A stretch of DNA of 39,138 nucleotides from a virus (lineage: Duplodnaviria; Heunggongvirae; Uroviricota; Caudoviricetes). The stretch covers positions 1 to 39,138 of the IMG/VR virus record IMGVR_UViG_2541047828_000002. One strand, written 5' to 3'. A program made the position numbers and the translations under genes. Positions within the stretch are counted from its first letter, which is position 1. Every line of letters begins with the position of its first letter. Below, one piece after another: positions 5,615-39,138 of this stretch. The notes under the pieces were generated by a model that saw only the letters and a list, made by a program, of their open reading frames with translations, was not told the DNA's origin and did not search any database.

Positions 5615-6066
5615 TTTTATTTTCCCTACATTATGTTATATAATTGTTCATATCATACAATTGTTGAGTATAGATGTCTCGTTATTCATCAACATTTACT
5701 CCTGTTAAATTAGGGGGAGGATGTATTAAAAATATTCATCTGGGTCGTCTAAATATTTTTGATAAACTAATAGCAATAACACTATCAGTATTGCCTGCCC
5801 TCACGTCGTTCTTGCTCTCGCGCGATTTTTAACTAAACACTAGCAGGATTTATCATGGTGCTACGCTACATTTACTTGTAGGGAGCTAAACAGATCATTG
5901 ACGCTGAAAATATTCAAATTGTTAAAGAGCGAAGCGTCCTATGGGCGTTTTGTTGCTAACGAATCATCTTGGACTTCATATGCCCCAGGCGGCTACTTCG
6001 TGGGCATCCTGCCTGTTTGTTGTTTCGTTTTGGTACATTATGTATCTGCGGGGTACATTGTCAAGT

Positions 6067-6091
6067 ATAAAAAAACCTGCCGAAGCAGGTT
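6067..6091 (-). terminator. intrinsic terminator after the repressor gene
   Basis: AACCTGC-CGAA-GCAGGTT hairpin (6074-6091), followed on the minus strand by a 7-U run. Lies 13 nt past the cI stop. Confidence 0.6.
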
Positions 6092-6103
6092 CATAAATAT
6101 TGA

Positions 6104-6778
6104 TTAGGCCTTTATTTTGTATCTTCTTGGTTTTCCCGAGAAAATCACAGTGCCAATTATAGAGCAATTACCGTTAATCTTAATGTAGGGCTCAGGCCAG
6201 TTTGGGTTTAATGCTTTGAGATAACGCTGTGTTCCATCTTCTATCAATCGCTTGAAGGTGGTTTCGCCTGTATCGTGCATCAACGCAATAACGTCGTCAC
6301 CGTGGCAAGCAGGGACTTCAGGATCAACAAAAATCATGTCTCCCGGACGGTACTCATCAATCATTGAATCACCAATCACCCGCAAGATATAAGTCATTTC
6401 GCCACAGGGTACAGGGCAGGGATAAGTTTCTGCTGTGCTCAAATCAACCTCAGAATAGCCAACTTCTTTCCATGCTCCGGCCTGTACCCATGATATGACA
6501 GGGACTAACGTTATTTGTTTGTTAGTGATTGAAACATCAGTTTTTTTTGTGATGTTCGTTGTCTGGTGTTCTTGATCGAGCCATCCGACAGGCAGGTCGA
6601 AACATTTTTCAATGTGTCGTGCCATGCTGTCACCGATATTTTTAGTAGCACCATCTCCCATAAACCTGCTGGTCTGGGTTGGCTCGCGATCAATCATAGT
6701 GGCAAAGGAAGAATTCCCGCCAACACCATCTCTCAGTTTTCTGGCGTTAGACCGCCGGATGTCATGGATTGTTTTCAT
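6104..6778 (-). CDS. CI-type prophage repressor (N-terminal DNA-binding domain plus S24 LexA-like autopeptidase domain)
   Basis: C-terminal VIGDSM (Ser nucleophile) and FKRL (Lys), with overall resemblance to the lambda cI C-terminal domain (VSGDSM...FKKL). Divergently oriented to a cro-like gene. Confidence 0.88.
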   Translation of the reverse strand: MKTIHDIRRSNARKLRDGVGGNSSFATMIDREPTQTSRFMGDGATKNIGDSMARHIEKCFDLPVGWLDQEHQTTNITKKTDVSITNKQITLVPVISWVQAGAWKEVGYSEVDLSTAETYPCPVPCGEMTYILRVIGDSMIDEYRPGDMIFVDPEVPACHGDDVIALMHDTGETTFKRLIEDGTQRYLKALNPNWPEPYIKINGNCSIIGTVIFSGKPRRYKIKA

Positions 6779-13028: not shown

Positions 13029-14360
13029 TTACTGGATGAATGACATTTGATTAATATATTTTATCAATAACTCTCTGGGTGTAGTACTCCAAAAATTTAT
13101 GTGTTCATAATCAGTATAAACATTTGTGAATTTTTTAAGTTCTTCATCACTTTTAGGGGCAAATCGCTCATTAAGAGTAATACTGTCTTTAATTATTCCG
13201 AAGAATACAATGGATATTTCAGGGATTTGCGATCTTCTCTCATAAGAATAAGGTATTTCTTTTATGTTAAGCAGGTCTGCTAAATAAGATATAGATTCAG
13301 CGGTAATTTCTTGTTTTAGTTTTTCCTTGTTACCAAAGCAATGTATGAAGGCAGCTACGACAAAGATCATATTTATTAAAGGATCACTGCTTTTGTTCTC
13401 ATCGTCGTTTAACAGTTGAAAAATGTTAAGATTGCGTGAAAATGTTTGTGTTTCACGTAATGATAAGTTGGTTCGTTGAATTAAATCACGGATAAAGTAA
13501 CCTGATAATCTATTGATTTTATTCAATAACCTTGTTTTTTCTACAAGGTAATCCCAATATATAACAGAGGCTTTACATACGTTGTGACCATTTATCAAAC
13601 ATGTATCTGGAAGCGTGATGGTATATTTTATAAACTTGTCAAGATACTTTTGTGAGTTAATGCTATAACCATAAATATGATTTATAGATGCTTTTAATTG
13701 TTCTGTGTTTGTAACTAAAATAAAAAAGACATTATTGATGTCAAAAATGTGTTTTATTGTTTCAATGACATTTGTTGAAAAACTCGGCTTACATCGGTCT
13801 AATTCATCAATTATAATTACGATTTTTTGATTTTTTGATATGCTTTCGATGCAGGATTTAAGTGAATTTATGTTTTTCTCTGAGTCCATATGGTCTTCAA
13901 GCAAATTTTCAATAGTCCCATCTATTGCTGCATTGCTTGCTTTCTTCATCGCATCTTGGAATTCTTCGGCAACTTCACTAGCCTCCTGTCGTAAAAACCA
14001 ACCTGCACCAGCTTTTAGTACCGTTTTTAAACCAAAGCGAATTGCAGGAAGAGATCTCTTAATGAAGTGTTGTTTTTCTTCCTCAGGCAAAATGCTGGCA
14101 ATTGCAGAGGTTATGAGAAGTAATGGAGATTCTGCATGATCCCCTTTAAAGGCATCAATATAAACAACTTTAGATTCAGTTTCTTGCTCAATAATGAGAT
14201 TTTTCAGTTTGATACTAAATTCTGTTTTCCCTGTTCCCCATGCGCCGTCTATTACCAGTGGTGAAATGTCTGCCTCTGGTTTTAGCAACTTGATGATATT
14301 TTCAGCGATGTTTCTTCGTTGGAACTCGTCACGTTCAGTGAAAGATAGTGTATCTAACAT
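13029..14360 (-). CDS. KAP-family P-loop NTPase (PifA-like), candidate abortive-infection/defence protein
   Basis: 443-aa AT-rich ORF on the opposite strand to the phage backbone. Walker A VIDGAWGTGKTEF and Walker B-like KIVIIIDELDRCKP are hallmarks of KAP NTPases. RBS AGGAG upstream. Confidence 0.85.
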   Translation of the reverse strand: MLDTLSFTERDEFQRRNIAENIIKLLKPEADISPLVIDGAWGTGKTEFSIKLKNLIIEQETESKVVYIDAFKGDHAESPLLLITSAIASILPEEEKQHFIKRSLPAIRFGLKTVLKAGAGWFLRQEASEVAEEFQDAMKKASNAAIDGTIENLLEDHMDSEKNINSLKSCIESISKNQKIVIIIDELDRCKPSFSTNVIETIKHIFDINNVFFILVTNTEQLKASINHIYGYSINSQKYLDKFIKYTITLPDTCLINGHNVCKASVIYWDYLVEKTRLLNKINRLSGYFIRDLIQRTNLSLRETQTFSRNLNIFQLLNDDENKSSDPLINMIFVVAAFIHCFGNKEKLKQEITAESISYLADLLNIKEIPYSYERRSQIPEISIVFFGIIKDSITLNERFAPKSDEELKKFTNVYTDYEHINFWSTTPRELLIKYINQMSFIQ

Positions 14361-15464: not shown

Positions 15465-15915
15465 GTTGGTTATCGCTGCTTTCTTCGTTACTGTCATTGG
15501 TTCTTTTATCTTTTCAGCGAATCATTACCACAATAAAGCCATTGAATACAAAAAGCAGCGCGACGAAAACGCAATGGCATTAGATTCGGCTATGGCGACG
15601 CTCTCTGATATGCAGAAGCGTCAACGTGACGTAGCAGAACTTGACGCCAGATATACAAAGGAGCTTGCTGATGCTAACGCGACTATCGAAAGTCTCCGTG
15701 CTGATGTTTCTGCTGGCCGTAAGTGGCTGCGCGTCAAAGCAGTCTGTCCCGACATGCATAAAATCACCGCCGCCTCCGGCGTGGATGATGGCTCCAGCCC
15801 CAGACTTACTGACACCGCTCAACGGGATTATTTCGTTCTCAGAGAGCGCATTGAAACCATAACTAACCAATTGAATGGCCTGCAAGAGTATGTGAGATCA
15901 CAGTGTTCATATTAG
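15448..15915 (+). CDS. Rz: Rz i-spanin
   Basis: N-terminal transmembrane segment. RQRDVAELDARYTKELADA...ASGVDDGSSPRLTDTAQRDYFVLRER resembles lambda Rz. Overlaps the R 3' end. Confidence 0.85.
   Translation: MKLSYKLVIAAFFVTVIGSFIFSANHYHNKAIEYKKQRDENAMALDSAMATLSDMQKRQRDVAELDARYTKELADANATIESLRADVSAGRKWLRVKAVCPDMHKITAASGVDDGSSPRLTDTAQRDYFVLRERIETITNQLNGLQEYVRSQCSY
15671..15862 (+). CDS. Rz1: Rz1 o-spanin lipoprotein, embedded in the +1 frame of Rz
   Basis: Lipobox LLAVSGC, then proline-rich SKQSVPTCIKSPPPPAWMMAPAPDLLTPLNGII, similar to lambda Rz1. Start taken at the internal Met. Confidence 0.75.
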   Translation: MLTRLSKVSVLMFLLAVSGCASKQSVPTCIKSPPPPAWMMAPAPDLLTPLNGIISFSESALKP

Positions 15916-15953
15916 AAAAGTCTTACCATAAGATTTTTGTATATGGATGCATT

Positions 15954-16328
15954 ATGTCTCAATACGCGCGTGCTGCTTTAATTGCTTATTATTTGGTTGC
16001 TGATAATTCATTATCCCCTCGTGATGCATGGGAGGCTGCTGTCGCTGAGGTTACAGAAAGCGAATCGGCAAGAAAGAAAGGATGCCCAAGGGCAACGTTT
16101 CTCGCTCTGACGGATAGCGGTTATCTGAAGAATGTAAAACCACAGCATGGGGAGAGAAAGGTCGGTAAGTTGTACCAAAGGGCAATTGAAGTTGCGAATC
16201 TGATTCTTGATTTGCCCGGAATCAGCAAAGCTGAGTTAGTTGATAAAACTTGCTATAAAGACAGGCAAGGGTCTTATGACATTGTTCTGACACTCGCTCA
16301 GTACGGATTTCTTCAACGTCCTCAGTAA
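15954..16328 (+). CDS. hypothetical protein (124 aa)
   Basis: ORF after the lysis cassette, followed by a hairpin terminator. Start uncertain (alternative ATG at 15903). No family recognised. Confidence 0.45.
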   Translation: MSQYARAALIAYYLVADNSLSPRDAWEAAVAEVTESESARKKGCPRATFLALTDSGYLKNVKPQHGERKVGKLYQRAIEVANLILDLPGISKAELVDKTCYKDRQGSYDIVLTLAQYGFLQRPQ

Positions 16329-16345
16329 GATATCAAGTGATTTAT

Positions 16346-16370
16346 GGCCTCGCTTTTAGCGGGGCTTTTT
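16346..16370 (+). terminator. intrinsic terminator
   Basis: GGCCTCGC-TTTTA-GCGGGGCT hairpin with G-U pairs, followed by TTTTT. Confidence 0.55.
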
Positions 16371-16519
16371 CACATCTGAATTTCACTGCGCACCCCACGC
16401 GCACATTATCACCCGAGCCTTTCAGAAAGTTGAGCCTGAGAACTGCCGTATATGGTGGCGACCATCTCGGGGCGGCTTTTCTGTGGGGCAGGCTCAATTT
16501 TCTAAAAGGTAAAAGCGCT

Positions 16520-17017
16520 ATGAAAGCAATCACGCTTTTTAATACACCGATCCGTGTTGATGAATCAGGAATGATCTGCCTCACTGACATGTGGAAAGCT
16601 AGTGGTAAAAGTGAATCTGAATCGCCGTACCACTACCTGCGAAACAAGCAGACCAAAGAGTTCTTGGCTGAGCTGGAGAAAAACCACGAATCTGTGGTTT
16701 TTACGGAACGCGGTGTGCACGGTGGAACTTATGGAGGAAAGTTCGTTGCTTATGATTACGCAGCATGGCTAAACCCTGAATTTAAATATGCAGCCTATAA
16801 AGTCCTCGATGACTACTTCACCGGAGAGCTTCAGCATCGCAGCAGCTTAAGTGCACAGCTCAATATGAAGTGTCACGAGTTTGATCAGAAGAAAGATATG
16901 GCGAGCTTTTGCGGGCAGGGACTGGCTGCTTGGCGTTACACCAAGCCAGTTCTGATGGCTGAAATTAGTAACCTGGCTACCCAGCTGCAGCTCACAATAC
17001 CCGGGCTGCATTCATAA
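16520..17017 (+). CDS. KilA-N domain protein
   Basis: MKAITLFNTPIRVDESGMICLTDMWKASGK...YHYLRNKQTKEFL is a KilA-N-like N-terminus. ATG 16520 follows AAGG. Confidence 0.6.
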   Translation: MKAITLFNTPIRVDESGMICLTDMWKASGKSESESPYHYLRNKQTKEFLAELEKNHESVVFTERGVHGGTYGGKFVAYDYAAWLNPEFKYAAYKVLDDYFTGELQHRSSLSAQLNMKCHEFDQKKDMASFCGQGLAAWRYTKPVLMAEISNLATQLQLTIPGLHS

Positions 17018-17290
17018 GCGCTCGAATCAATATGCCTACCACACCGCTCGTGTGCGGATGAACAGTGTCAGCTCATGTAAGACAGCAGATTGTTCAACCA
17101 TATGTGGAAGTGTTCCAATATCCAATTTGCGCAAAGCTTTATTATCATCTTAAGTAAGATATTGATTATCAGATTGATTAAATAATCTTTTTTCATAGTC
17201 CCTCTTCAATATTCAGTTTTAATGGAGGGAAGAATGCGGAGTTTGTGATTTGCGTTGTAGACAGAGAAGAGTTAAACGAGTCGATTTCTC

Positions 17291-17641
17291 ATGCCTGCCT
17301 TAATCCCCAGAGCCTGCCGTGTTCGCGGCTGCCGCCATACCACAACTGACCCGTCAGGCTATTGCGAAAGCCACAAAAGCGAAGGCTGGAAGCAATACAA
17401 ACCTGGACAATCCCGTCATCAGCGCGGCTACGGTTCGAAGTGGGACAGTATCCGCGCGCGTGTCCTGAAGCGTGACAAAGGCCTGTGCCAGTTGTGCCTG
17501 CGTGCCGGTGTGGTGCGTGAGGCGAAAACCGTTGACCACATTATCCCTAAAGCGCATGGCGGCACTGATGCTGACTGCAATCTGCAGAGTTTGTGCTGGC
17601 CGTGTCATAAGGCGAAGACGGCCCGTGAACGGCTTAAGTGA
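17291..17641 (+). CDS. HNH endonuclease (terminase-associated)
   Basis: CxxC...HxxxH...N...CxxCH pattern: CRVRGC...CESH, then VDHIIPKAHGGTDADCNLQSLCWPCHKAKT. Sits immediately upstream of the terminase genes, as in HK97-like phages. Confidence 0.85.
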   Translation: MPALIPRACRVRGCRHTTTDPSGYCESHKSEGWKQYKPGQSRHQRGYGSKWDSIRARVLKRDKGLCQLCLRAGVVREAKTVDHIIPKAHGGTDADCNLQSLCWPCHKAKTARERLK

Positions 17642-27579: not shown

Positions 27580-27728
27580 CGGCTGAATACCTCACTGATC
27601 GCTTCTTTGACTGCGCCAGCTACTGGCGCATTAATCCTTTCGAATTGCTGAATATGCCGATCAGTGAAATTCCCTTACTGGTCAGTCAGGCAAACAGGAT
27701 AGAGCAGGAGAAACGCACACATGGCTGA
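27310..27728 (+). CDS. tail assembly chaperone, predicted -1 frameshift fusion product
   Basis: Slippery heptamer T TTT TTC at 27561-27567. The -1 frame (ORF 27546..27728) continues to overlap the tape measure start. Confidence 0.5.
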
Positions 27729-29553
27729 ATTTGAGCTTAAGGCGTTGATCACCGGTGTCGACAGGCTTTCTCCCGCGCTGTCGAAAATGCAAAAGAAAAT
27801 CCGGGGATTTAAACGCCAGGCGGAAGAAGCGTCACAGGGTGGGCTGGCGCTTGGTGGCGGACTGGCAGCGGGTCTGACGCTTTCCCTGAAATCTTATGCC
27901 GATCAGGAAAACGCCGCCACCGGGCTGAAAGTCGCCATGATGGATGCGAACGGCGAGGTTGGAAAGAGCTTTCAGGACATCAATAAACTGGCTATTGGCC
28001 TGGGTAACCAGCTACCCGGTACAACGGCTGATTTCCAGAACATGATGCAGATGCTGGTGCGTCAGGGGATCCCGGCAGAAAACATTCTTGGCGGTGTGGG
28101 TAAAGCGACAGCTTATCTTGCGGTACAACTGAAAAAAACACCGGAAGCGGCTGCCGAGTTTGCCGCAAAGATGCAGGATGCTACCGGAACGGCGTCAGAA
28201 GACATGATGGGGCTGTTCGACACTATCCAGAAGGCGTTTTATCTGGGCGTTGACGATACCAACATGTTGTCCTTCTTCACTAAAACCAGCTCTGTTCTGA
28301 AGATGGTGAACAAGGACGGTCTTCAGGCTGCACAGAGCCTTGCCCCCATCAGCGTCATGATGGATCAGATGGGGATGAACGGGGAGTCGGCAGGTAACGC
28401 CCTGCGAAAAGTTATCCAGTCCGGATTAAGCGTTAAGAAAATCAGGGACGTCAATAAAATCATGGCCCGCCAGAAACTCGGGGTACAGCTCGATTTTACT
28501 GACGGCAAAGGGAGTTTTGGCGGTCTTGATAACATGTTCAGGCAACTGGCAAAGCTGCGACAACTGACCGACGTTAAACGAACTGGTGTACTTAAGGCAA
28601 TATTTGGTGATGATGCCGAAACCCTTCAGGTGGTCAATGCACTAATCGATAAAGGAAAGGATGGCTACGATCAGATCCAGCAGAAGATGAATAAACAGGC
28701 CAGCCTGAATAAACGTGTTCAGGCACAGCTTGGTACGCTGTCCAACCTGTGGGAGGCAATGACAGGGACCGCAACTAACGGCCTTGCGGCTATTGGCGGT
28801 GCATTTTCTGGTGACGCTAAAAATATCACGCAATGGCTGGGGGAGTTGGGGGAGAAATTCACGAAGTTTGCGGATGAAAATCCCCGGGTTATTCGCGGCG
28901 TCGTCGGGCTTGCTGCCGGTCTTGCGATTCTGAAACTGGGATTGATGGGCGTTGGCGGTGCCATCAGTATTGTCAGCAGGATCATGTCGATGACGCCGAT
29001 TGGCATGATTGCGACGGCGATAGCCCTGGCTGCGGGATTAATTATCACTAACTGGGATGTTGTCGGACCTTATTTTAAGAAACTCTGGGAAACCATTGGT
29101 CCTTATTTTGAGGCTGGCTGGGAACTCCTTAAGAAAGTTTTTGCCTGGTCGCCGCTGGGGATGGTGATCAATAACTGGGGGCCGGTTGTTAAGTGGTTTC
29201 AGGATATGTGGGACAAGCTGAAGCCAATTATTGAGTGGTTTACCGACAGTTCCGGTGACACGGTCGATGCCATTAACTCTGCGCAGTGGGGCGCGGGTGC
29301 TTATGATGCTTATGGGACGGGAATACCGGCGCGGGGATACACACCTTATCCGGCGGTGGATCTGGCTCAGTCAAACAACGCCTCCGATGCCACAGCCCCG
29401 AATCCCTTCATGATTAACAAAGCTTCTGCGCCAAAAGTTGATGGTGAGATCAAGGTCTCTTTTGTGAATTCGCCTCCGGGTATGCGGGTTATGGAAACAC
29501 GTTCTAGTGACATTGATATTAATCACGATGTTGGGTACACCAGATTTAGGTAA
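27721..29553 (+). CDS. tail tape measure protein
   Basis: 610-aa product with an Ala/Gly-rich helical N-terminal half and hydrophobic glycine-zipper segments (VVGLAAGLAILKLGLMGVGGAISIV). Downstream of the chaperone frameshift. Confidence 0.88.
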   Translation: MAEFELKALITGVDRLSPALSKMQKKIRGFKRQAEEASQGGLALGGGLAAGLTLSLKSYADQENAATGLKVAMMDANGEVGKSFQDINKLAIGLGNQLPGTTADFQNMMQMLVRQGIPAENILGGVGKATAYLAVQLKKTPEAAAEFAAKMQDATGTASEDMMGLFDTIQKAFYLGVDDTNMLSFFTKTSSVLKMVNKDGLQAAQSLAPISVMMDQMGMNGESAGNALRKVIQSGLSVKKIRDVNKIMARQKLGVQLDFTDGKGSFGGLDNMFRQLAKLRQLTDVKRTGVLKAIFGDDAETLQVVNALIDKGKDGYDQIQQKMNKQASLNKRVQAQLGTLSNLWEAMTGTATNGLAAIGGAFSGDAKNITQWLGELGEKFTKFADENPRVIRGVVGLAAGLAILKLGLMGVGGAISIVSRIMSMTPIGMIATAIALAAGLIITNWDVVGPYFKKLWETIGPYFEAGWELLKKVFAWSPLGMVINNWGPVVKWFQDMWDKLKPIIEWFTDSSGDTVDAINSAQWGAGAYDAYGTGIPARGYTPYPAVDLAQSNNASDATAPNPFMINKASAPKVDGEIKVSFVNSPPGMRVMETRSSDIDINHDVGYTRFR

Positions 29554-29560
29554 AGACGAA

Positions 29561-29582
29561 CAGGGAGGGCCGCCCCTCCCTG
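29561..29582. terminator. bidirectional hairpin between tape measure and a convergent accessory gene
   Basis: CAGGGAGGG-CCGC-CCCTCCCTG, a perfect 9-bp stem between the convergent stops at 29553 and 29586. Confidence 0.6.
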
Positions 29583-29585
29583 AAC

Positions 29586-30032
29586 TTACTGTGCGAACAC
29601 GCAATTTCGGCCTGATGGGGAGCCGACAATTCTGGACATTTTTTCGCAAATAACAGTTACCTGTTCTCCTTTTTTAAGAGCAGCAGCTGTTGATTTTTCA
29701 GAGTCTTGCATCTCCATTCTTGCTGGCATGAATTCATTTTCAGTTCTGAATTTAATAATTATAGAGTCAGTAAAGTCCTTATCAATGGATTGTACGATAC
29801 CTCTAACGGCGATTAATTTACCTTTTAACTGTTCATCGGTAGCGACTTCATTTTCTTCATACTCTTTAAACAGCTGTCGAGCAGTAGTGTTGTAGATTTC
29901 TTTTTGCGGTGCCGCAGCTTCCGTATCGGATGAGTATGAAGAATTAGAGCCTTTATCGTTATTGCCTGCAAAATATCCAATAATCACCAACCCGATGAAA
30001 ATATATAAAATCCATTTTAATAATTTCTTCAT
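29586..30032 (-). CDS. exported/membrane-anchored OB-fold protein (tRNA_anti-like family)
   Basis: AT-rich 148-aa ORF on the opposite strand. N-terminal hydrophobic anchor MKKLLKWILYIFIGLVIIGYFAG. Then ARQLFKEYEENEVATDEQLKGKLIAVRGIVQSIDKD...KKGEQVTVICEKM, which matches the remembered signature of the tRNA_anti-like OB-fold family. Confidence 0.6.
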   Translation of the reverse strand: MKKLLKWILYIFIGLVIIGYFAGNNDKGSNSSYSSDTEAAAPQKEIYNTTARQLFKEYEENEVATDEQLKGKLIAVRGIVQSIDKDFTDSIIIKFRTENEFMPARMEMQDSEKSTAAALKKGEQVTVICEKMSRIVGSPSGRNCVFAQ

Positions 30033-30142
30033 GTTATCACCTTAATGCTAATAATTTATATAGTTACAAATGGTAATGGCTACCACTACAAATTATGGCA
30101 TTACCAGTAAATATTACTACTGATAATAAATATGGGACTTAT

Positions 30143-31471
30143 ATGACGTGGAAAGACAGACTTCAGGATGCGTCATTTCGCGGCGTGCCGTTTAAGGTTG
30201 AAGAAGAAAGTGCGGGAACCGGTCGTCGTGTGGAAACACATGAATACCCGAACCGCGACAAACCCTATACCGAAGACCTGGGGAAAATCACTTTCCGCCC
30301 GTCCATCACGGCTTATGTGGTGGGAGATGACTGCTTTGACCAGCGTGATCTCCTGATTGAAGCGCTGAATAAACCAGGTCCCGGCACGCTTGTCCACCCG
30401 ACATACGGTGAGGTGAAAGTCTGTGTTGACGGGGAAGTCCGGGTCAGCACATCGAAGAGTGAAGGGCGTATTGTCCGCTTTGACCTGAAGTTTGTCGAAG
30501 CGGGAGAACTCTCTTACCCCACATCAGGCGTGGCGACGGCGCAGACGCTGATGTCATCCTGTTCTGCACTGGATGACTGCATCAGTGACAGCTTCAGCGG
30601 TTTCAGTATCGATGGCGTGGCGGATTTTGTGCAGAACGACGTTATCGGTAATGCCAGCACAATGCTTGGGTATGTTTCTGATGCGATGAAAGTGGTGGAT
30701 TCTGCTGTATCGGATGCCGCCAGGCTGTTGCAGGGGGATATCTCGGTACTTCTGCCGCCGCCATCGTCAGGAAAAAATTTCGTTGAGCAGGTGCAGAAAA
30801 TGTGGCGTACCGGTAAACGCCTTTATGGTAACGCCAGCGACCTGGTCACCATGATCAAAATGCTTTCTGGTGTCAGCCTCGGCAGCGATTTGCAACCGCG
30901 CGGCGTCTGGAAAACGGACAGTAAAACCACCGCCACAGCGACGCAGCAGCGTAACGTGGTTGCCAGCACTCTTCGTACGACTGCAATCAGCGAAGCAGCG
31001 TATGCCGTCACACGATTGCCTGCGCCAACAACTCCCGCGGTGATGCAGAATGCCGCAGTGGGGCAGTCAACAACACCCGCGCAGAGCACCGGCTGGCCTT
31101 CCGTCACGCATCCGGCACTGAACAATGCACCTGCGGTGAAAAACACGGTTGACCTGCCAACGTGGGAAGAACTGACCGACATTCGCGACACACTGAATAC
31201 GGCAATTGATAAGGAGTTGTCCCGTACAACCAGTGATGCGCTGTTTCTGGCGCTGCGCCGGGTGAAAGCAGATCTGAATGCGGATATCAACACGCGCCTT
31301 GAACAGTCTGCGCGGATCATTCAGCGCACGCCGGATGAGGTTTTACCCGCGCTGGTGCTGGCGGCGACCTGGTTTGATAACGCGGCGCGTGACGTGGACC
31401 TTATCCGGCGTAATGCTATTACGCATCCCGGCTTTGTGCCGGTGATCCCTCTGAAGGTGCCAGTGCAATGA
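30143..31471 (+). CDS. DNA circularization protein (Mu N / gp43-like)
   Basis: MTWKDRLQDASFRGVPFKVEEESAGTGRRVETHEYPNRD is the characteristic N-terminal domain. Internal Met chosen; the ORF track start at 30095 lies in the AT-rich promoter region of the neighbouring gene. Confidence 0.75.
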   Translation: MTWKDRLQDASFRGVPFKVEEESAGTGRRVETHEYPNRDKPYTEDLGKITFRPSITAYVVGDDCFDQRDLLIEALNKPGPGTLVHPTYGEVKVCVDGEVRVSTSKSEGRIVRFDLKFVEAGELSYPTSGVATAQTLMSSCSALDDCISDSFSGFSIDGVADFVQNDVIGNASTMLGYVSDAMKVVDSAVSDAARLLQGDISVLLPPPSSGKNFVEQVQKMWRTGKRLYGNASDLVTMIKMLSGVSLGSDLQPRGVWKTDSKTTATATQQRNVVASTLRTTAISEAAYAVTRLPAPTTPAVMQNAAVGQSTTPAQSTGWPSVTHPALNNAPAVKNTVDLPTWEELTDIRDTLNTAIDKELSRTTSDALFLALRRVKADLNADINTRLEQSARIIQRTPDEVLPALVLAATWFDNAARDVDLIRRNAITHPGFVPVIPLKVPVQ

Positions 31472-36746: not shown

Positions 36747-37814
36747 TTAATGAAATTTATCTCGGATGAATTGTTGCGATGGCTTTTCAATGAATATATA
36801 TGACATATAGCTAATTGCCATTAATGTAAGCATGAATAAAATGAATACCTTGGGGCTGTAAAAAAGATCGCGTCCATAGCCAATCTTGTCAGCTAAATAA
36901 ACAACAATGATTTGCAAAGGAAAATGTAAAAGATAAGATGAATAACTGATATCACCCAACCATTCAATTTTCTTCCCAAAATCGTTTCGTATTGCGCTAA
37001 TTGATACAAGGAAAAAGATTATGGAGGTAAATCCGAATAAGATAATTGAGAATATATCTGCTACTTGCAGGGTAAAGATAACTCCCCATGAGATCAATAG
37101 AAAAACACAAGCAAAAATAAAAAATAATTTTGCGCTAATATTTTTTATGACCGCAATCGTAATTTTATAGGTCAGACCACCAATAAAGAAAGAGAATGCG
37201 CCGATCATTATGGGATTGTTAATTTTGAAAAAGTAGTACGACAATGCAACTATTAAAATTGATATGAATGTTGTTTTTGATGTGAACTTGCATAATATAA
37301 AAAATATCATGTACATAAGTACTTCAATCGACACGGACCATGTCGGGGCGTTGAAGGACCAACCTCGCTCAAATCCCCATGATTGAATCATCAATAAATT
37401 CAGAATGGCATGGTAAATGTCATTCATAGGATAAACAAAAAAATAATTATGACTTTTAAAGAAAATAATTTGTAATATTGCCACGACAGCAAATGTAAAT
37501 ATATAAAGTGGATATAATCTACTGACACGGTTAACTATAAAAGTTTTTGCTGAGGTTTTATTGCTGTGTATATTGTCAGCGTATAGATAAAAAAATATGA
37601 ATCCAGAAATCATAAAAAACAATTCGACAGCATATAAACCGTAATGATAAAAAACGGAAAAAAATTCATAAAAAGGTTGGCGGTTTATGATTATGTCAGA
37701 TGCAGCATTCTTTTTCATAAAAAAATGTTGCCAATGCCATAACACAACGGAAAGTGCGGCAAATCCTCTCAGAACATCCAGGGTATATATTCTCTTCCCA
37801 AAAAAATTCGTCAC
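36747..37814 (-). CDS. acyltransferase family 3 integral membrane protein (O-antigen acetyltransferase-like)
   Basis: 355-aa, very AT-rich ORF with about 10 hydrophobic segments. N-terminus LDVLRGFAALSVVLWHW is the characteristic acyltransferase_3 start. GTG start with RBS AAGAGG. Confidence 0.8.
   Translation of the reverse strand: MTNFFGKRIYTLDVLRGFAALSVVLWHWQHFFMKKNAASDIIINRQPFYEFFSVFYHYGLYAVELFFMISGFIFFYLYADNIHSNKTSAKTFIVNRVSRLYPLYIFTFAVVAILQIIFFKSHNYFFVYPMNDIYHAILNLLMIQSWGFERGWSFNAPTWSVSIEVLMYMIFFILCKFTSKTTFISILIVALSYYFFKINNPIMIGAFSFFIGGLTYKITIAVIKNISAKLFFIFACVFLLISWGVIFTLQVADIFSIILFGFTSIIFFLVSISAIRNDFGKKIEWLGDISYSSYLLHFPLQIIVVYLADKIGYGRDLFYSPKVFILFMLTLMAISYMSYIFIEKPSQQFIRDKFH

Positions 37815-38364: not shown

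Positions 38365-39138
<774 letters not shown>

What the first reader, a model, noticed from the sequence alone, without database searches (positions are those of the whole stretch)
29561..30094. Opposite-strand exported OB-fold protein inserted inside the tail operon
Between the tape measure and Mu-N-like genes lies a minus-strand, AT-rich 148-aa gene with an N-terminal membrane anchor and a tRNA_anti-like OB-fold body. It has its own AT-rich upstream region (30033-30142) and a perfect bidirectional hairpin (29561-29582). An envelope-localised protein expressed from the lysogen could block receptors or DNA entry.
Basis: partly seen in the sequence, partly recalled or inferred. Interest (0 to 1): 0.45.

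Follow-up and report, generated by a model that had tools for sequence, protein, structure and literature searches.

The report
Sie2009-like exported OB-fold prophage moron
A small, separately acquired gene sitting backwards in the tail operon of an E. coli prophage encodes a membrane-anchored periplasmic protein distantly related to a lactococcal phage protein that stops other phages injecting DNA, so it is probably an ordinary, though untested, superinfection-exclusion gene.

Summary
A 148-aa minus-strand gene (29586-30032, 37% GC) lies between the tape-measure gene and the Mu-N-like gene of an SfV/SfII-like E. coli prophage. It has an N-terminal membrane helix, a disordered Ser-rich linker and a confidently modelled OB-fold (PF12869). 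The 9-bp hairpin at 29561-29582 is real, but it looks like a terminator only on the minus strand.

The gene is accessory cargo. It is absent from SfV, SfII and SfI. In a spread sample of 60 E. coli records with this tail module, 5 carry it, 27 have an empty junction, and about 16 carry a different annotated gene (in phage SKA5, a signal-peptide protein).

It matches PHROG 8545 (E 1.5e-49). That family contains lactococcal Sie2009, a membrane protein that blocks phage DNA injection. A profile comparison with Sie2009 gives 97.8% probability over anchor, linker and OB domain. In other phages, relatives sit just downstream of the repressor or antisense next to a tape-measure gene.

The most likely function is superinfection exclusion at DNA entry from the periplasmic face of the inner membrane. 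Expression, topology and phenotype are untested. I class it as a new member of a known kind, of moderate-to-low interest.

The parts
29554..30142 (-). Moron cassette: all DNA between the tape-measure stop and the start of the N-like gene, about 585 bp. It replaces the ~45-70 bp spacer of SfV/SfII.
   Evidence: SfII/SfV/SfI match the window on both sides but are 526 bp shorter. Empty junctions span 375 bp against 901 bp here. GC is 37.2%. There are no flanking direct or terminal inverted repeats.
29586..30032 (-). 148-aa gene for a membrane-anchored OB-fold protein (PF12869, PHROG 8545; PGAP name 'OB-fold protein')
   Evidence: dN/dS is about 0.04 against the 71% allele, with dS saturated.
29967..30023 (-). 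Codons 4-22: hydrophobic signal-anchor helix preceded by MKK..K. There is no lipobox Cys and no good signal-peptidase I site.
29901..29963 (-). Codons 24-44: Ser/Asn-rich low-complexity linker, variable in length among homologues
   Evidence: pLDDT is below 50 for residues 25-39. The alignment is length-variable here.
29589..29900 (-). Codons 45-148: OB-fold domain with invariant Y..NEVA.D motif, QSIDKD, N.FMPA and two invariant Cys (129, 144). The domain is acidic (pI 5.2).
30037..30043 (-). Shine-Dalgarno AAGGTGA, 4 nt before the ATG. The stretch AGGTGAT.ACATG is identical in three diverged alleles apart from one base in the spacer of L037.
30092..30100 (-). Candidate extended -10 promoter TGcCATAAT (TGcTATAAA in the 71-73% alleles). 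It is an island of conservation in an otherwise diverged spacer. Unverified.
   Evidence: The generic -35/-10 scan found no minus-strand site in the spacer.
29561..29582 (-). Perfect 9-bp hairpin 4 nt after the stop codon. It is terminator-like only on the minus strand, with a weak T tail. The GGGAGGG/CCCTCCC stem is retained in diverged alleles.
27721..29553 (+). Flank: tail tape-measure gene (610 aa). Its last ~60 nt diverge from SfII.
30143..31471 (+). Flank: Mu N-like DNA-circulation gene, with the start revised from 30095

Best explanation
The gene is a horizontally acquired moron in a polymorphic cargo slot between the tape-measure and N-like genes of an SfV/SfII-like E. coli prophage. 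It is transcribed antisense to the late tail operon from its own weak, extended -10 type promoter and ends at its own hairpin, so it can be expressed while the prophage is repressed.

The product inserts into the inner membrane by an uncleaved N-terminal signal anchor (N-in, C-out). A flexible Ser-rich linker holds an acidic OB-fold domain in the periplasm. It is a remote homologue of lactococcal Sie2009 with the same architecture.

It most likely acts as a superinfection-exclusion protein. After an incoming phage has adsorbed, the OB domain would interfere with the step in which the tail tip or tape-measure protein opens a path for DNA through the inner membrane. It could do this by binding a phage tail component or a host factor used for entry.

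Shown here: gene anatomy, accessory status, foreign composition, purifying selection, fold, family membership, homology to Sie2009, and repressor-linked or tape-measure-linked positions of relatives.

Inferred: promoter use and lysogen expression, topology, the exclusion activity itself, and its target.
For: Accessory status. The gene is absent from SfV, SfII, SfI and vB_EcoM-689R6. SKA5 carries another gene at the site. In a spread sample of 60 of the 1098 matching E. coli records, 5 have this gene, 27 have an empty junction, about 16 have another annotated gene, and 12 match only the N flank. The gene occurs in 79 of 5426 complete E. coli genomes.

Foreign origin and selection. GC is 37% against 52-56% in the flanks. 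dN is 0.17 with saturated dS against the 71% allele found at the same junction.

Family. PF12869 E 2.9e-19. PHROG 8545 'superinfection exclusion Sie-like' E 1.5e-49. Tuc2009 orf2 (Sie2009) scores 1.7e-79 on the same PHROG and 3.5e-11 on PF12869. BLASTP of the window protein against Sie2009 gives E 1e-6. hhalign gives probability 97.8%, E 9.5e-13, over 135 columns covering anchor, linker and OB domain. Sie2009 is described as a membrane-associated blocker of DNA injection (PMC7693887).

Topology. MKK..K precedes the only hydrophobic segment. Among 165 homologues, 140 have the same anchor, 5 have a true lipobox and 8 have an N-terminal zinc ribbon followed by a TM helix. Others (P0073, P0080) appear to have a cleavable signal peptide. 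All of these arrangements place the OB domain outside the cytoplasm. Two Cys in the domain are invariant.

Lysogeny linkage in relatives. In Burkholderia phage Carl1 the order is repressor, a hypothetical protein, the OB gene, then a terminator. In the related locus L063 (with L069/L071/L074/L077 showing the same ORF layout) the middle gene is a PHROG 6521 membrane protein. In L085 a CI-like S24 repressor lies directly upstream on the same strand.

Tail-module linkage in relatives. In L057 the gene is antisense immediately 5' of a tape-measure gene. In Klebsiella phage ST405-OXA48phi1.2 it is antisense inside the baseplate module.

Own signals. The SD is conserved and a TGC[C/T]ATAA island is shared by three diverged alleles. 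Homologues in Pantoea, Serratia and Carl1 are followed by canonical terminators.

Precedent. HK97 gp15 is an inner-membrane exclusion protein encoded by a moron next to the tape-measure gene (PMC3594210).
Against: Identity to Sie2009 is only about 25% across a Gram-positive to Gram-negative distance. PF12869 is a very large family (7,798 clusters at 50% identity with E <= 1e-3), and almost none of its members has a tested function, so function may not transfer.

The closest non-E. coli relatives in Pantoea lie in a chromosomal island with no recognisable phage genes. PADLOC has no model that matches.

The simple sigma-70 scan found no minus-strand promoter in the spacer. The terminator tail is weak.

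Some lineages carry 5'-truncated remnants, so the gene is dispensable. No paper in the held library reports a phenotype for a Gram-negative member.
Confidence: 0.5

Rival explanations
1. It is a lysogenic-conversion or fitness factor unrelated to phage entry. A periplasmic OB-fold protein could bind an envelope ligand (oligosaccharide, peptidoglycan or LPS precursor, or a host protein) and alter envelope physiology or stress tolerance of the lysogen.
For: PF12869 is huge and mostly uncharacterised. Pantoea homologues at 61-65% identity sit in a chromosomal island beside copCD/yebY with no phage genes. OB folds commonly bind oligosaccharides. The domain is acidic, pI 5.2.
Against: The only characterised relative is an exclusion protein. 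Relatives recur directly behind phage repressors and next to tape-measure genes. IMG/VR holds 104 relatives on viral contigs.
Confidence: 0.25
2. It is an immunity or protection protein against periplasm-acting toxins (colicins, contact-dependent or T6SS effectors, tailocins) rather than against phages.
For: In Pantoea the homologue lies a few genes from a WapI-type immunity gene in a variable island. It is membrane-tethered and periplasm-facing, like many immunity proteins.
Against: No cognate toxin gene lies next to it in the window or in the prophage contexts examined. It matches no immunity family in Pfam or NCBIfam.
Confidence: 0.1
3. It is an abortive-infection protein of the AbiP/PdpSau type. 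The membrane anchor would hold a cytoplasmic nucleic-acid-binding OB fold that senses infection and kills or arrests the cell.
For: AbiP and PdpSau are prophage- or plasmid-encoded, N-terminally anchored proteins with an OB-like domain (PMC10127798). The nearest structural neighbours beyond 3F1Z are anticodon-binding OB folds.
Against: The positive-inside rule, plus the lipoprotein, signal-peptide and zinc-ribbon-then-TM variants of the family, all put the OB domain outside the cytoplasm. The domain is acidic, whereas the PdpSau C-terminal domain is described as positively charged. Two Cys are invariant.
Confidence: 0.05
4. It is a structural or assembly component of the tail, or a spurious ORF in an AT-rich spacer.
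For: It is located inside the tail operon.
Against: It is absent from the closely related phage genomes SfV, SfII and SfI and lies on the opposite strand. It shows strong purifying selection and has 90 homologous clusters above threshold. The fold is modelled with high confidence.
Confidence: 0.02

Closest known systems
Sie2009 (orf2 of Lactococcus phage Tuc2009) and its lactococcal P335-phage relatives; PHROG 8545
   Same: Same PHROG family and same Pfam domain (PF12869). Same architecture: basic N-terminus, one TM helix, Ser/Thr/Gly-rich linker, OB domain with the Y..N..A.D..KGK motif. Small size (148 against 173 aa). Encoded by a temperate phage.
   Different: Only about 25% identical. The host is Gram-negative, so the domain would be periplasmic rather than on the cell surface. 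Here the gene is antisense in the tail operon, not between repressor and integrase. The two invariant Cys of the enterobacterial clade are absent from Sie2009. No phenotype has been measured.
HK97 gp15 (YebO-like moron product)
   Same: It is a moron inside a tail operon next to the tape-measure gene, with deviant composition, in an E. coli temperate phage. Its product is an inner-membrane protein that blocks genome injection without touching the outer-membrane receptor (PMC3594210).
   Different: No sequence relationship: BLASTP finds no alignment, and gp15 is a 62-aa PF13974 protein. gp15 is co-oriented with the operon and lies upstream of the tape-measure gene. It has no OB domain.
3F1Z, Klebsiella pneumoniae 'putative nucleic acid-binding lipoprotein' (a solved structure with the same OB fold)
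   Same: Best structural match to the model (Foldseek E 5e-5, TM 0.65 normalised to the target). It is deposited as a putative lipoprotein.
   Different: 17-18% identity. It is named a lipoprotein, whereas this protein has a signal anchor. Its function is unknown.
Clostridioides difficile TcdC
   Same: The held paper on TcdC cites the PF12869/tRNA_anti-like family (PMC3575817). That TcdC is N-terminally membrane-anchored with an OB-type C-terminal domain is from my own knowledge, not checked here.
   Different: It is a toxin-locus regulator in a Gram-positive bacterium. It was reported to bind G-quadruplex DNA. No sequence comparison was run here.
AbiP / PdpSau membrane-anchored OB-fold abortive-infection proteins
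   Same: N-terminal TM helix plus an OB-like domain. PdpSau is prophage-encoded. Both give anti-phage outcomes.
   Different: Their OB domain is cytoplasmic and basic, and the mechanism is abortive infection. Here the predicted topology is the opposite and the domain is acidic.

Membership tests
Pfam PF12869 tRNA_anti-like | Score above the curated gathering threshold | tested here: met
   69.5 bits against a cutoff of 23.5, E 2.9e-19, residues 2-130
Pfam PF12869 tRNA_anti-like | OB-fold tertiary structure like 3F1Z | tested here: met
   AlphaFold model has pLDDT 95-98 over residues 45-148. 3F1Z is the top Foldseek PDB hit, E 5e-5.
Sie2009-type superinfection exclusion proteins (PHROG 8545) | Sequence membership of the family that contains Sie2009 | tested here: met
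   PHROG 8545 E 1.5e-49 for the window protein and 1.7e-79 for Tuc2009 orf2. hhalign against Sie2009 gives probability 97.8%, E 9.5e-13. BLASTP E 1e-6 over 47 aa.
Sie2009-type superinfection exclusion proteins (PHROG 8545) | Small protein with a hydrophobic N-terminus that anchors it in the membrane | tested here: met
   By prediction only: hydropathy 2.16 for residues 4-22 and a modelled helix at 2-23. The feature is as described in PMC7693887.
Sie2009-type superinfection exclusion proteins (PHROG 8545) | Gene located in the lysogeny module (between repressor and integrase) | tested here: not met
   Here it is antisense between the tape-measure and N genes. Relatives in Carl1, L063-type loci and L085 do lie directly downstream of the repressor.
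Sie2009-type superinfection exclusion proteins (PHROG 8545) | Expressed from the repressed prophage | not testable with these tools
   Only a candidate extended -10 conserved in three alleles. The generic promoter scan was negative for the spacer.
Sie2009-type superinfection exclusion proteins (PHROG 8545) | Blocks DNA injection without impairing adsorption | not testable with these tools
   Needs plating, adsorption and DNA-entry assays.
Moron (Juhala/Hendrix definition, as summarised in PMC3594210) | Present in some and absent from otherwise closely related phage genomes | tested here: met
Moron (Juhala/Hendrix definition, as summarised in PMC3594210) | Base composition different from neighbouring genes | tested here: met
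   37% against 52-56% GC
Moron (Juhala/Hendrix definition, as summarised in PMC3594210) | Own promoter and terminator | tested here: inconclusive
   The hairpin with a weak T tail is on the correct strand. There is a conserved TGnTATAAT-like motif. There is no experimental TSS.
HK97 gp15 / YebO (PF13974) | Sequence homology to gp15/YebO | tested here: not met
   BLASTP gives no alignment. PF13974 hits gp15 only.
Bacterial lipoproteins (source name 'OB-fold putative lipoprotein') | Lipobox with an invariant Cys after the signal peptide | tested here: not met
   The only Cys are at 129 and 144. Five homologues do have a lipobox, e.g. P0067 ALISGC and P0071 LLAACG.
AbiP/PdpSau-type abortive infection | Cytoplasmic, basic nucleic-acid-binding OB domain | tested here: not met
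   By prediction only: N-in/C-out charge bias, extracytoplasmic variants of the family, and pI 5.2.
Catalogued defence systems (PADLOC-DB 2.0) | Match to any model | tested here: not met
   0 families at E <= 1

The most novel reading that the evidence does not exclude
PF12869 membrane-tethered OB-fold proteins would be a cross-phylum family of phage DNA-entry blockers. The E. coli member would be the first Gram-negative one. It would act in the periplasm against contractile-tailed, Mu-type-tail phages by capturing the emerging tape-measure or tail-tip complex. The tape-measure/N junction of SfV-like prophages would be a dedicated hot-spot for interchangeable exported anti-phage cargo. Supporting this last point, the alternative gene seen there in phage SKA5 (PHROG 8976) also carries a signal peptide.
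Probability: 0.3. Interest if true: 0.55.

Novelty: new member of a known kind. Interest (0 to 1): 0.35.

Why it matters
If confirmed, this would give a function to a large domain family that is otherwise uncharacterised: about 7,800 clusters at 50% identity, usually annotated only as 'OB-fold protein' or 'putative lipoprotein'.

It would extend the lactococcal Sie2009 mechanism, whose molecular target I believe is still unknown, to a genetically tractable Gram-negative host where DNA-entry assays and escape-mutant mapping are routine.

It would also mark the tape-measure/N junction of the common SfV-like E. coli and Shigella prophages as a cargo slot worth mining. As it stands, the gene is a well-behaved example of a known phenomenon: a tail-operon moron that probably encodes an exclusion protein.

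Tried and rejected
- PADLOC gave no hit. NCBIfam gave only a sub-threshold spore_III_AG match.
- A sequence search of PDB chains gave only chance hits to coronavirus S2 constructs.
- Rfam on 29300-30400 gave one sub-threshold chance hit, MALAT1, so there is no evidence for a structured RNA.
- A repeat search found no target-site duplication or terminal inverted repeats around the insert. Transposition is therefore rejected in favour of mosaic recombination.
- The generic sigma-70 scan found no minus-strand promoter in the spacer. Its two hits are a minus-strand site inside the gene and a plus-strand site overlapping the gene's 5' end. I therefore looked at conservation among alleles instead.
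- The first MAFFT junction alignment misplaced the 3' end of the tape-measure gene. I took the insert boundaries from BLAST spans.
- The HK97 gp15 primary paper (PMC3430355) is not held, so I used the authors' commentary.
- Literature searches for tRNA_anti-like, PF12869, 'Sie-like', and OB-fold with exclusion found no study of a Gram-negative member.
- My simple greedy ORF calling on IMG/VR loci is crude in high-GC contigs, so the context census is indicative and not quantitative.
Full report
**What is there**

The window is an SfV/SfII/SfI-like temperate phage of E. coli or Shigella, with a lambdoid head and regulatory genes and a Mu-like contractile tail. Megablast of 27721-31471 finds SfII, SfI, SfV, SKA5 and vB_EcoM-689R6 at 96-98% identity. 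About 1090 of 5426 complete E. coli genomes carry related flanks. A PGAP-annotated relative at about 98% identity gives the gene order sheath, tube, assembly protein, tape measure, 'OB-fold protein' (opposite strand), DNA circularization protein, baseplate.

It runs 29586..30032 on the minus strand and encodes 148 aa.
- The gene is 37.4% GC and its 110-bp upstream spacer is 27.3% GC. The neighbouring tail genes are 52-56%.
- Only 9.5% of same-sized windows in the sequence are as AT-rich.
- The N-like gene almost certainly starts at 30143 (ATGACGTGG...), as in SfV, SfII, SKA5 and PGAP. The AT-rich in-frame ATG at 30095 is not the start.

**The protein**

Residues 4-22 are the only hydrophobic segment (mean Kyte-Doolittle 2.16) and are preceded by MKKLLK. 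Pfam gives PF12869 tRNA_anti-like at E 2.9e-19, 69.5 bits against a threshold of 23.5.

An AlphaFold2 model built on 51 homologues has mean pLDDT 86.7.
- Residues 2-23 form a helix.
- Residues 25-39 are a disordered linker (pLDDT below 50).
- Residues 45-148 form an OB barrel with pLDDT 95-98.

Foldseek against the PDB puts 3F1Z first (Klebsiella 'putative nucleic acid-binding lipoprotein', E 5e-5). Anticodon-binding and RPA-type OB folds follow.

Despite the source name 'OB-fold putative lipoprotein', this protein has no lipobox. Its only cysteines are at 129 and 144, and both are invariant in 51 aligned homologues.

The anchor type varies across the family. Among 165 homologues, 140 have the same signal anchor, 5 have a genuine lipobox and 8 have a cytoplasmic zinc ribbon followed by a TM helix. 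Others (P0073, P0080) appear to have a cleavable signal peptide. All of these architectures, and the positive-inside rule, place the OB domain outside the cytoplasm, which in E. coli means the periplasm. The domain is acidic (pI 5.2, 17 D+E against 15 K+R). That argues against nucleic-acid binding and for a protein or glycan ligand. Topology is an inference and was not measured.

**It is cargo, not a tail part**

SfII, SfV, SfI and 689R6 match on both sides of the gene but are 526 bp shorter. Their tape-measure and N genes are separated by a short spacer, which in SfII is annotated as a rho-independent terminator. Phage SKA5 carries a different, plus-strand 170-aa gene at the same place (PHROG 8976, no Pfam hit). 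Its product begins with a typical signal peptide, MRIFVFFISALLSFNLAA/EEC.

I took a rank-spread sample of 60 of the 1098 matching E. coli records.

| Junction state | Records |
|---|---|
| OB-fold gene (one is a ~75%-identity allele) | 5 |
| Empty junction (375-bp span) | 27 |
| Larger span with an annotated 'hypothetical protein' (mostly ~995 bp, the size expected for the SKA5-type insert) | about 16 |
| Only the N flank matches | 12 |

The gene itself occurs in 79 of 5426 genomes. In 72 of these it is at least 99% identical, in 7 it is 72-75% identical, and all copies are chromosomal. A 71%-identical allele (P0008) sits at exactly the same junction in the same orientation.

Against that allele dN is 0.17 and dS is saturated, giving dN/dS of about 0.04. 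The protein is therefore under strong purifying selection. Some lineages hold 5'-truncated remnants, as expected for dispensable cargo. No direct or terminal inverted repeats flank the insert. It probably arrived by mosaic recombination and not by transposition.

**Signals**

A strong Shine-Dalgarno sequence (AAGGTGA) lies 4 nt before the ATG. The stretch AGGTGAT.ACATG is identical in three diverged alleles apart from one spacer base in L037.

The generic sigma-70 scan finds no minus-strand promoter in the spacer. However, in an otherwise poorly conserved spacer, the three alleles share an island TGC[C/T]ATAA[T/A] at 30092-30100. This reads as an extended -10 element: TGcCATAAT here and TGcTATAAA in the others, which also have TGGTCA 17 nt upstream. 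I treat this as a candidate promoter only.

The hairpin at 29561-29582 is a perfect 9-bp stem with a 4-nt loop. Its free energy is -18 to -22 kcal/mol. It has a T-rich tail only on the minus strand (TTCGTCTTTA), and the plus strand continues AACTTACTG. It therefore fits a weak terminator for the moron and not a bidirectional one. That is also what a late operon needs if it must read through to N and the baseplate genes.

The GGGAGGG/CCCTCCC stem is kept in the diverged alleles with different loops. Homologues in Pantoea, Serratia and Burkholderia phage Carl1 are each followed by a canonical GC-stem plus T-run terminator. The gene thus travels as an autonomous transcription unit.

**What family it belongs to**

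PHROGs assigns it to phrog_8545, 'superinfection exclusion Sie-like', with E 1.5e-49 over the full length. I traced that label. Tuc2009 orf2, the gene between repressor and integrase, carries this annotation. It scores 1.7e-79 on phrog_8545 and is itself a PF12869 protein, E 3.5e-11. I take it to be sie2009.

The direct comparison with Sie2009 gives two results:
- BLASTP gives 36% identity over 47 residues, E 1e-6.
- A profile of 51 enterobacterial homologues against Sie2009 gives hhalign probability 97.8%, E 9.5e-13, over 135 columns. These run from the basic N-terminus through the TM helix and Ser-rich linker into the OB domain, including the Y..N..A.D..KGK motif.

[quoted passage not shown] The window protein is therefore a remote but genuine homologue, with the same architecture, of an experimentally characterised DNA-injection blocker.

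**Context elsewhere**

IMG/VR holds 104 relatives on viral contigs.
- Twenty-five of the best 80 are the same junction in SfV-like phages.
- In Burkholderia phage Carl1 the order is immunity repressor, a hypothetical protein, the OB gene, then a terminator, convergent with the P2-like D/U/T genes. In the related locus L063 the middle gene matches PHROG 6521 (membrane protein). L069, L071, L074 and L077 show the same ORF layout by size and strand.
- In L085 a CI-like S24 repressor (E 2.6e-48) lies directly upstream on the same strand.
- In L057 a 52%-identical homologue lies antisense immediately 5' of a tape-measure gene.
- In Klebsiella phage ST405-OXA48phi1.2 a zinc-ribbon-bearing homologue lies antisense inside the baseplate module.
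- In Serratia the gene lies at a prophage end, after tail-fibre and acyltransferase genes.
- In Pantoea it lies in a chromosomal island next to copCD/yebY, with a WapI-type immunity gene nearby and no phage genes.

The family is very large: 7,798 clusters at 50% identity with E <= 1e-3. In BFVD one structural neighbour is a 352-aa phage protein named 'Host cell surface-exposed lipoprotein'.

**Mechanism**

The best-supported reading has four steps. The moron is expressed from the repressed prophage. Its product is tethered to the periplasmic face of the inner membrane. Like Sie2009 by homology and HK97 gp15 by analogy, it then blocks passage of incoming phage DNA across the inner membrane. It most likely does this by binding a tail-tip or tape-measure component or a host entry factor.

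HK97 gp15 is the closest E. coli precedent in logic. It is a moron in the tail operon beside the tape-measure gene, and its inner-membrane product blocks injection in a tail-dependent way (PMC3594210). It is unrelated in sequence: it is a YebO-like PF13974 protein and BLASTP finds no alignment. Recent work on SNIPE shows that defence proteins at the inner membrane can act through tape-measure proteins during injection (PMC13190303).

I put about 0.9 on 'accessory moron encoding an extracytoplasmic membrane-tethered OB-fold protein'. I put about 0.45-0.5 on 'superinfection exclusion at DNA entry'.

The rivals, in order of weight:
- An envelope fitness factor unrelated to phage (0.25).
- Immunity to periplasm-acting toxins or tailocins (0.1).
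- An AbiP/PdpSau-type abortive-infection protein with a cytoplasmic OB domain (0.05). The predicted topology and the acidic domain contradict this.
- A tail component or spurious ORF (0.02). Absence from related phages and purifying selection contradict this.

**Novelty and verdict**

The held literature contains no study of a Gram-negative member, and nothing links PF12869 to exclusion beyond the PHROG label. This is a new member of a known kind: a Sie2009-family prophage moron placed like HK97 gp15. The modestly new points are three. The Sie2009 family extends to Gram-negative prophages. The membrane tether is interchangeable. The tape-measure/N junction is a polymorphic slot that can carry alternative cargo, at least one of which also looks exported. 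Interest is 0.35.

Noticed in passing
window 30095-30142: The longest ORF for the Mu-N-like gene starts at 30095 inside the AT-rich moron spacer. PGAP and the SfV/SfII/SKA5 alignments put the real start at 30143 (ATGACGTGG). Its SD is GGGA here and GGAG in SfII, so the insertion has slightly altered the ribosome-binding site of N.
   Followed up: partly
L002 2415-2927 (phage SKA5); about 16 of 60 sampled E. coli records have a larger junction with an annotated hypothetical protein: In SKA5 the same tape-measure/N junction carries an unrelated plus-strand 170-aa gene (PHROG 8976, unknown function, no Pfam). Its product has a clear signal peptide (MRIFVFFISALLSFNLAA/EEC). In that phage the slot therefore also carries an exported protein.
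   Followed up: partly
L032-L036 around 6001-6399; E. coli 042 and others (query 72-447): Some prophages keep only a 5'-truncated remnant of the OB-fold gene, lacking the promoter, start codon and membrane anchor. L029 and L031 have a 134-aa version starting inside the anchor. This is gene decay in some lineages.
   Followed up: partly
window 13029-14360 (-): A 443-aa KAP-family P-loop NTPase (PF07693, E 9e-71) at 33% GC lies on the opposite strand, between the Q antiterminator and the holin according to the PGAP-annotated relative. It is another moron-like insertion and a plausible defence candidate.
   Followed up: no
window 36747-37814 (-) and 38365-39138 (-): After the tail-fibre assembly gene lie a 355-aa Acyl_transf_3 membrane acyltransferase (32% GC, O-antigen acetylase-like, fitting the serotype-converting SfV/SfII group) and a LEM-3-like GIY-YIG protein. 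Both are on the minus strand.
   Followed up: no
window 15723-17303: The segment between the lysis genes and the HNH/terminase genes differs from the otherwise ~98% identical prophage of strain WP8-S18-CRE-02. Here it holds DUF6979 (15903-16328) and a KilA-N/ORF11CD3 protein (16337-17017). There it holds a DUF6236 protein. This is a second variable cargo slot.
   Followed up: no
L014 4061-4807 (Carl1) and L063 5179-5940: In the P2-like Burkholderia-type phages the OB-fold gene follows a ~250-aa gene, itself downstream of the repressor. In L063 this gene matches PHROG 6521 (membrane protein, E 6e-81). The Carl1 gene was checked only against Pfam and had no hit. The two may work together as a two-component exclusion system.
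   Followed up: no
(P0091, P0096, P0129, P0147 and others) and rank 4 (A0A8S5U313): Some family members carry 2-5 tandem OB repeats. One 352-aa phage protein that is a structural neighbour of the model is named 'Host cell surface-exposed lipoprotein'. Whether it also contains an Ltp-type domain was not checked.
   Followed up: no
L001 2349-2387 (SfII) vs window 30100-30142: Empty junctions (SfII, SfV) contain a plus-strand hairpin with a T run (CCCACTCCGGTGGGATTTTTT) just before N. In SfII it is annotated as a rho-independent terminator inside the late operon. The moron cassette has replaced it in the window.
   Followed up: partly
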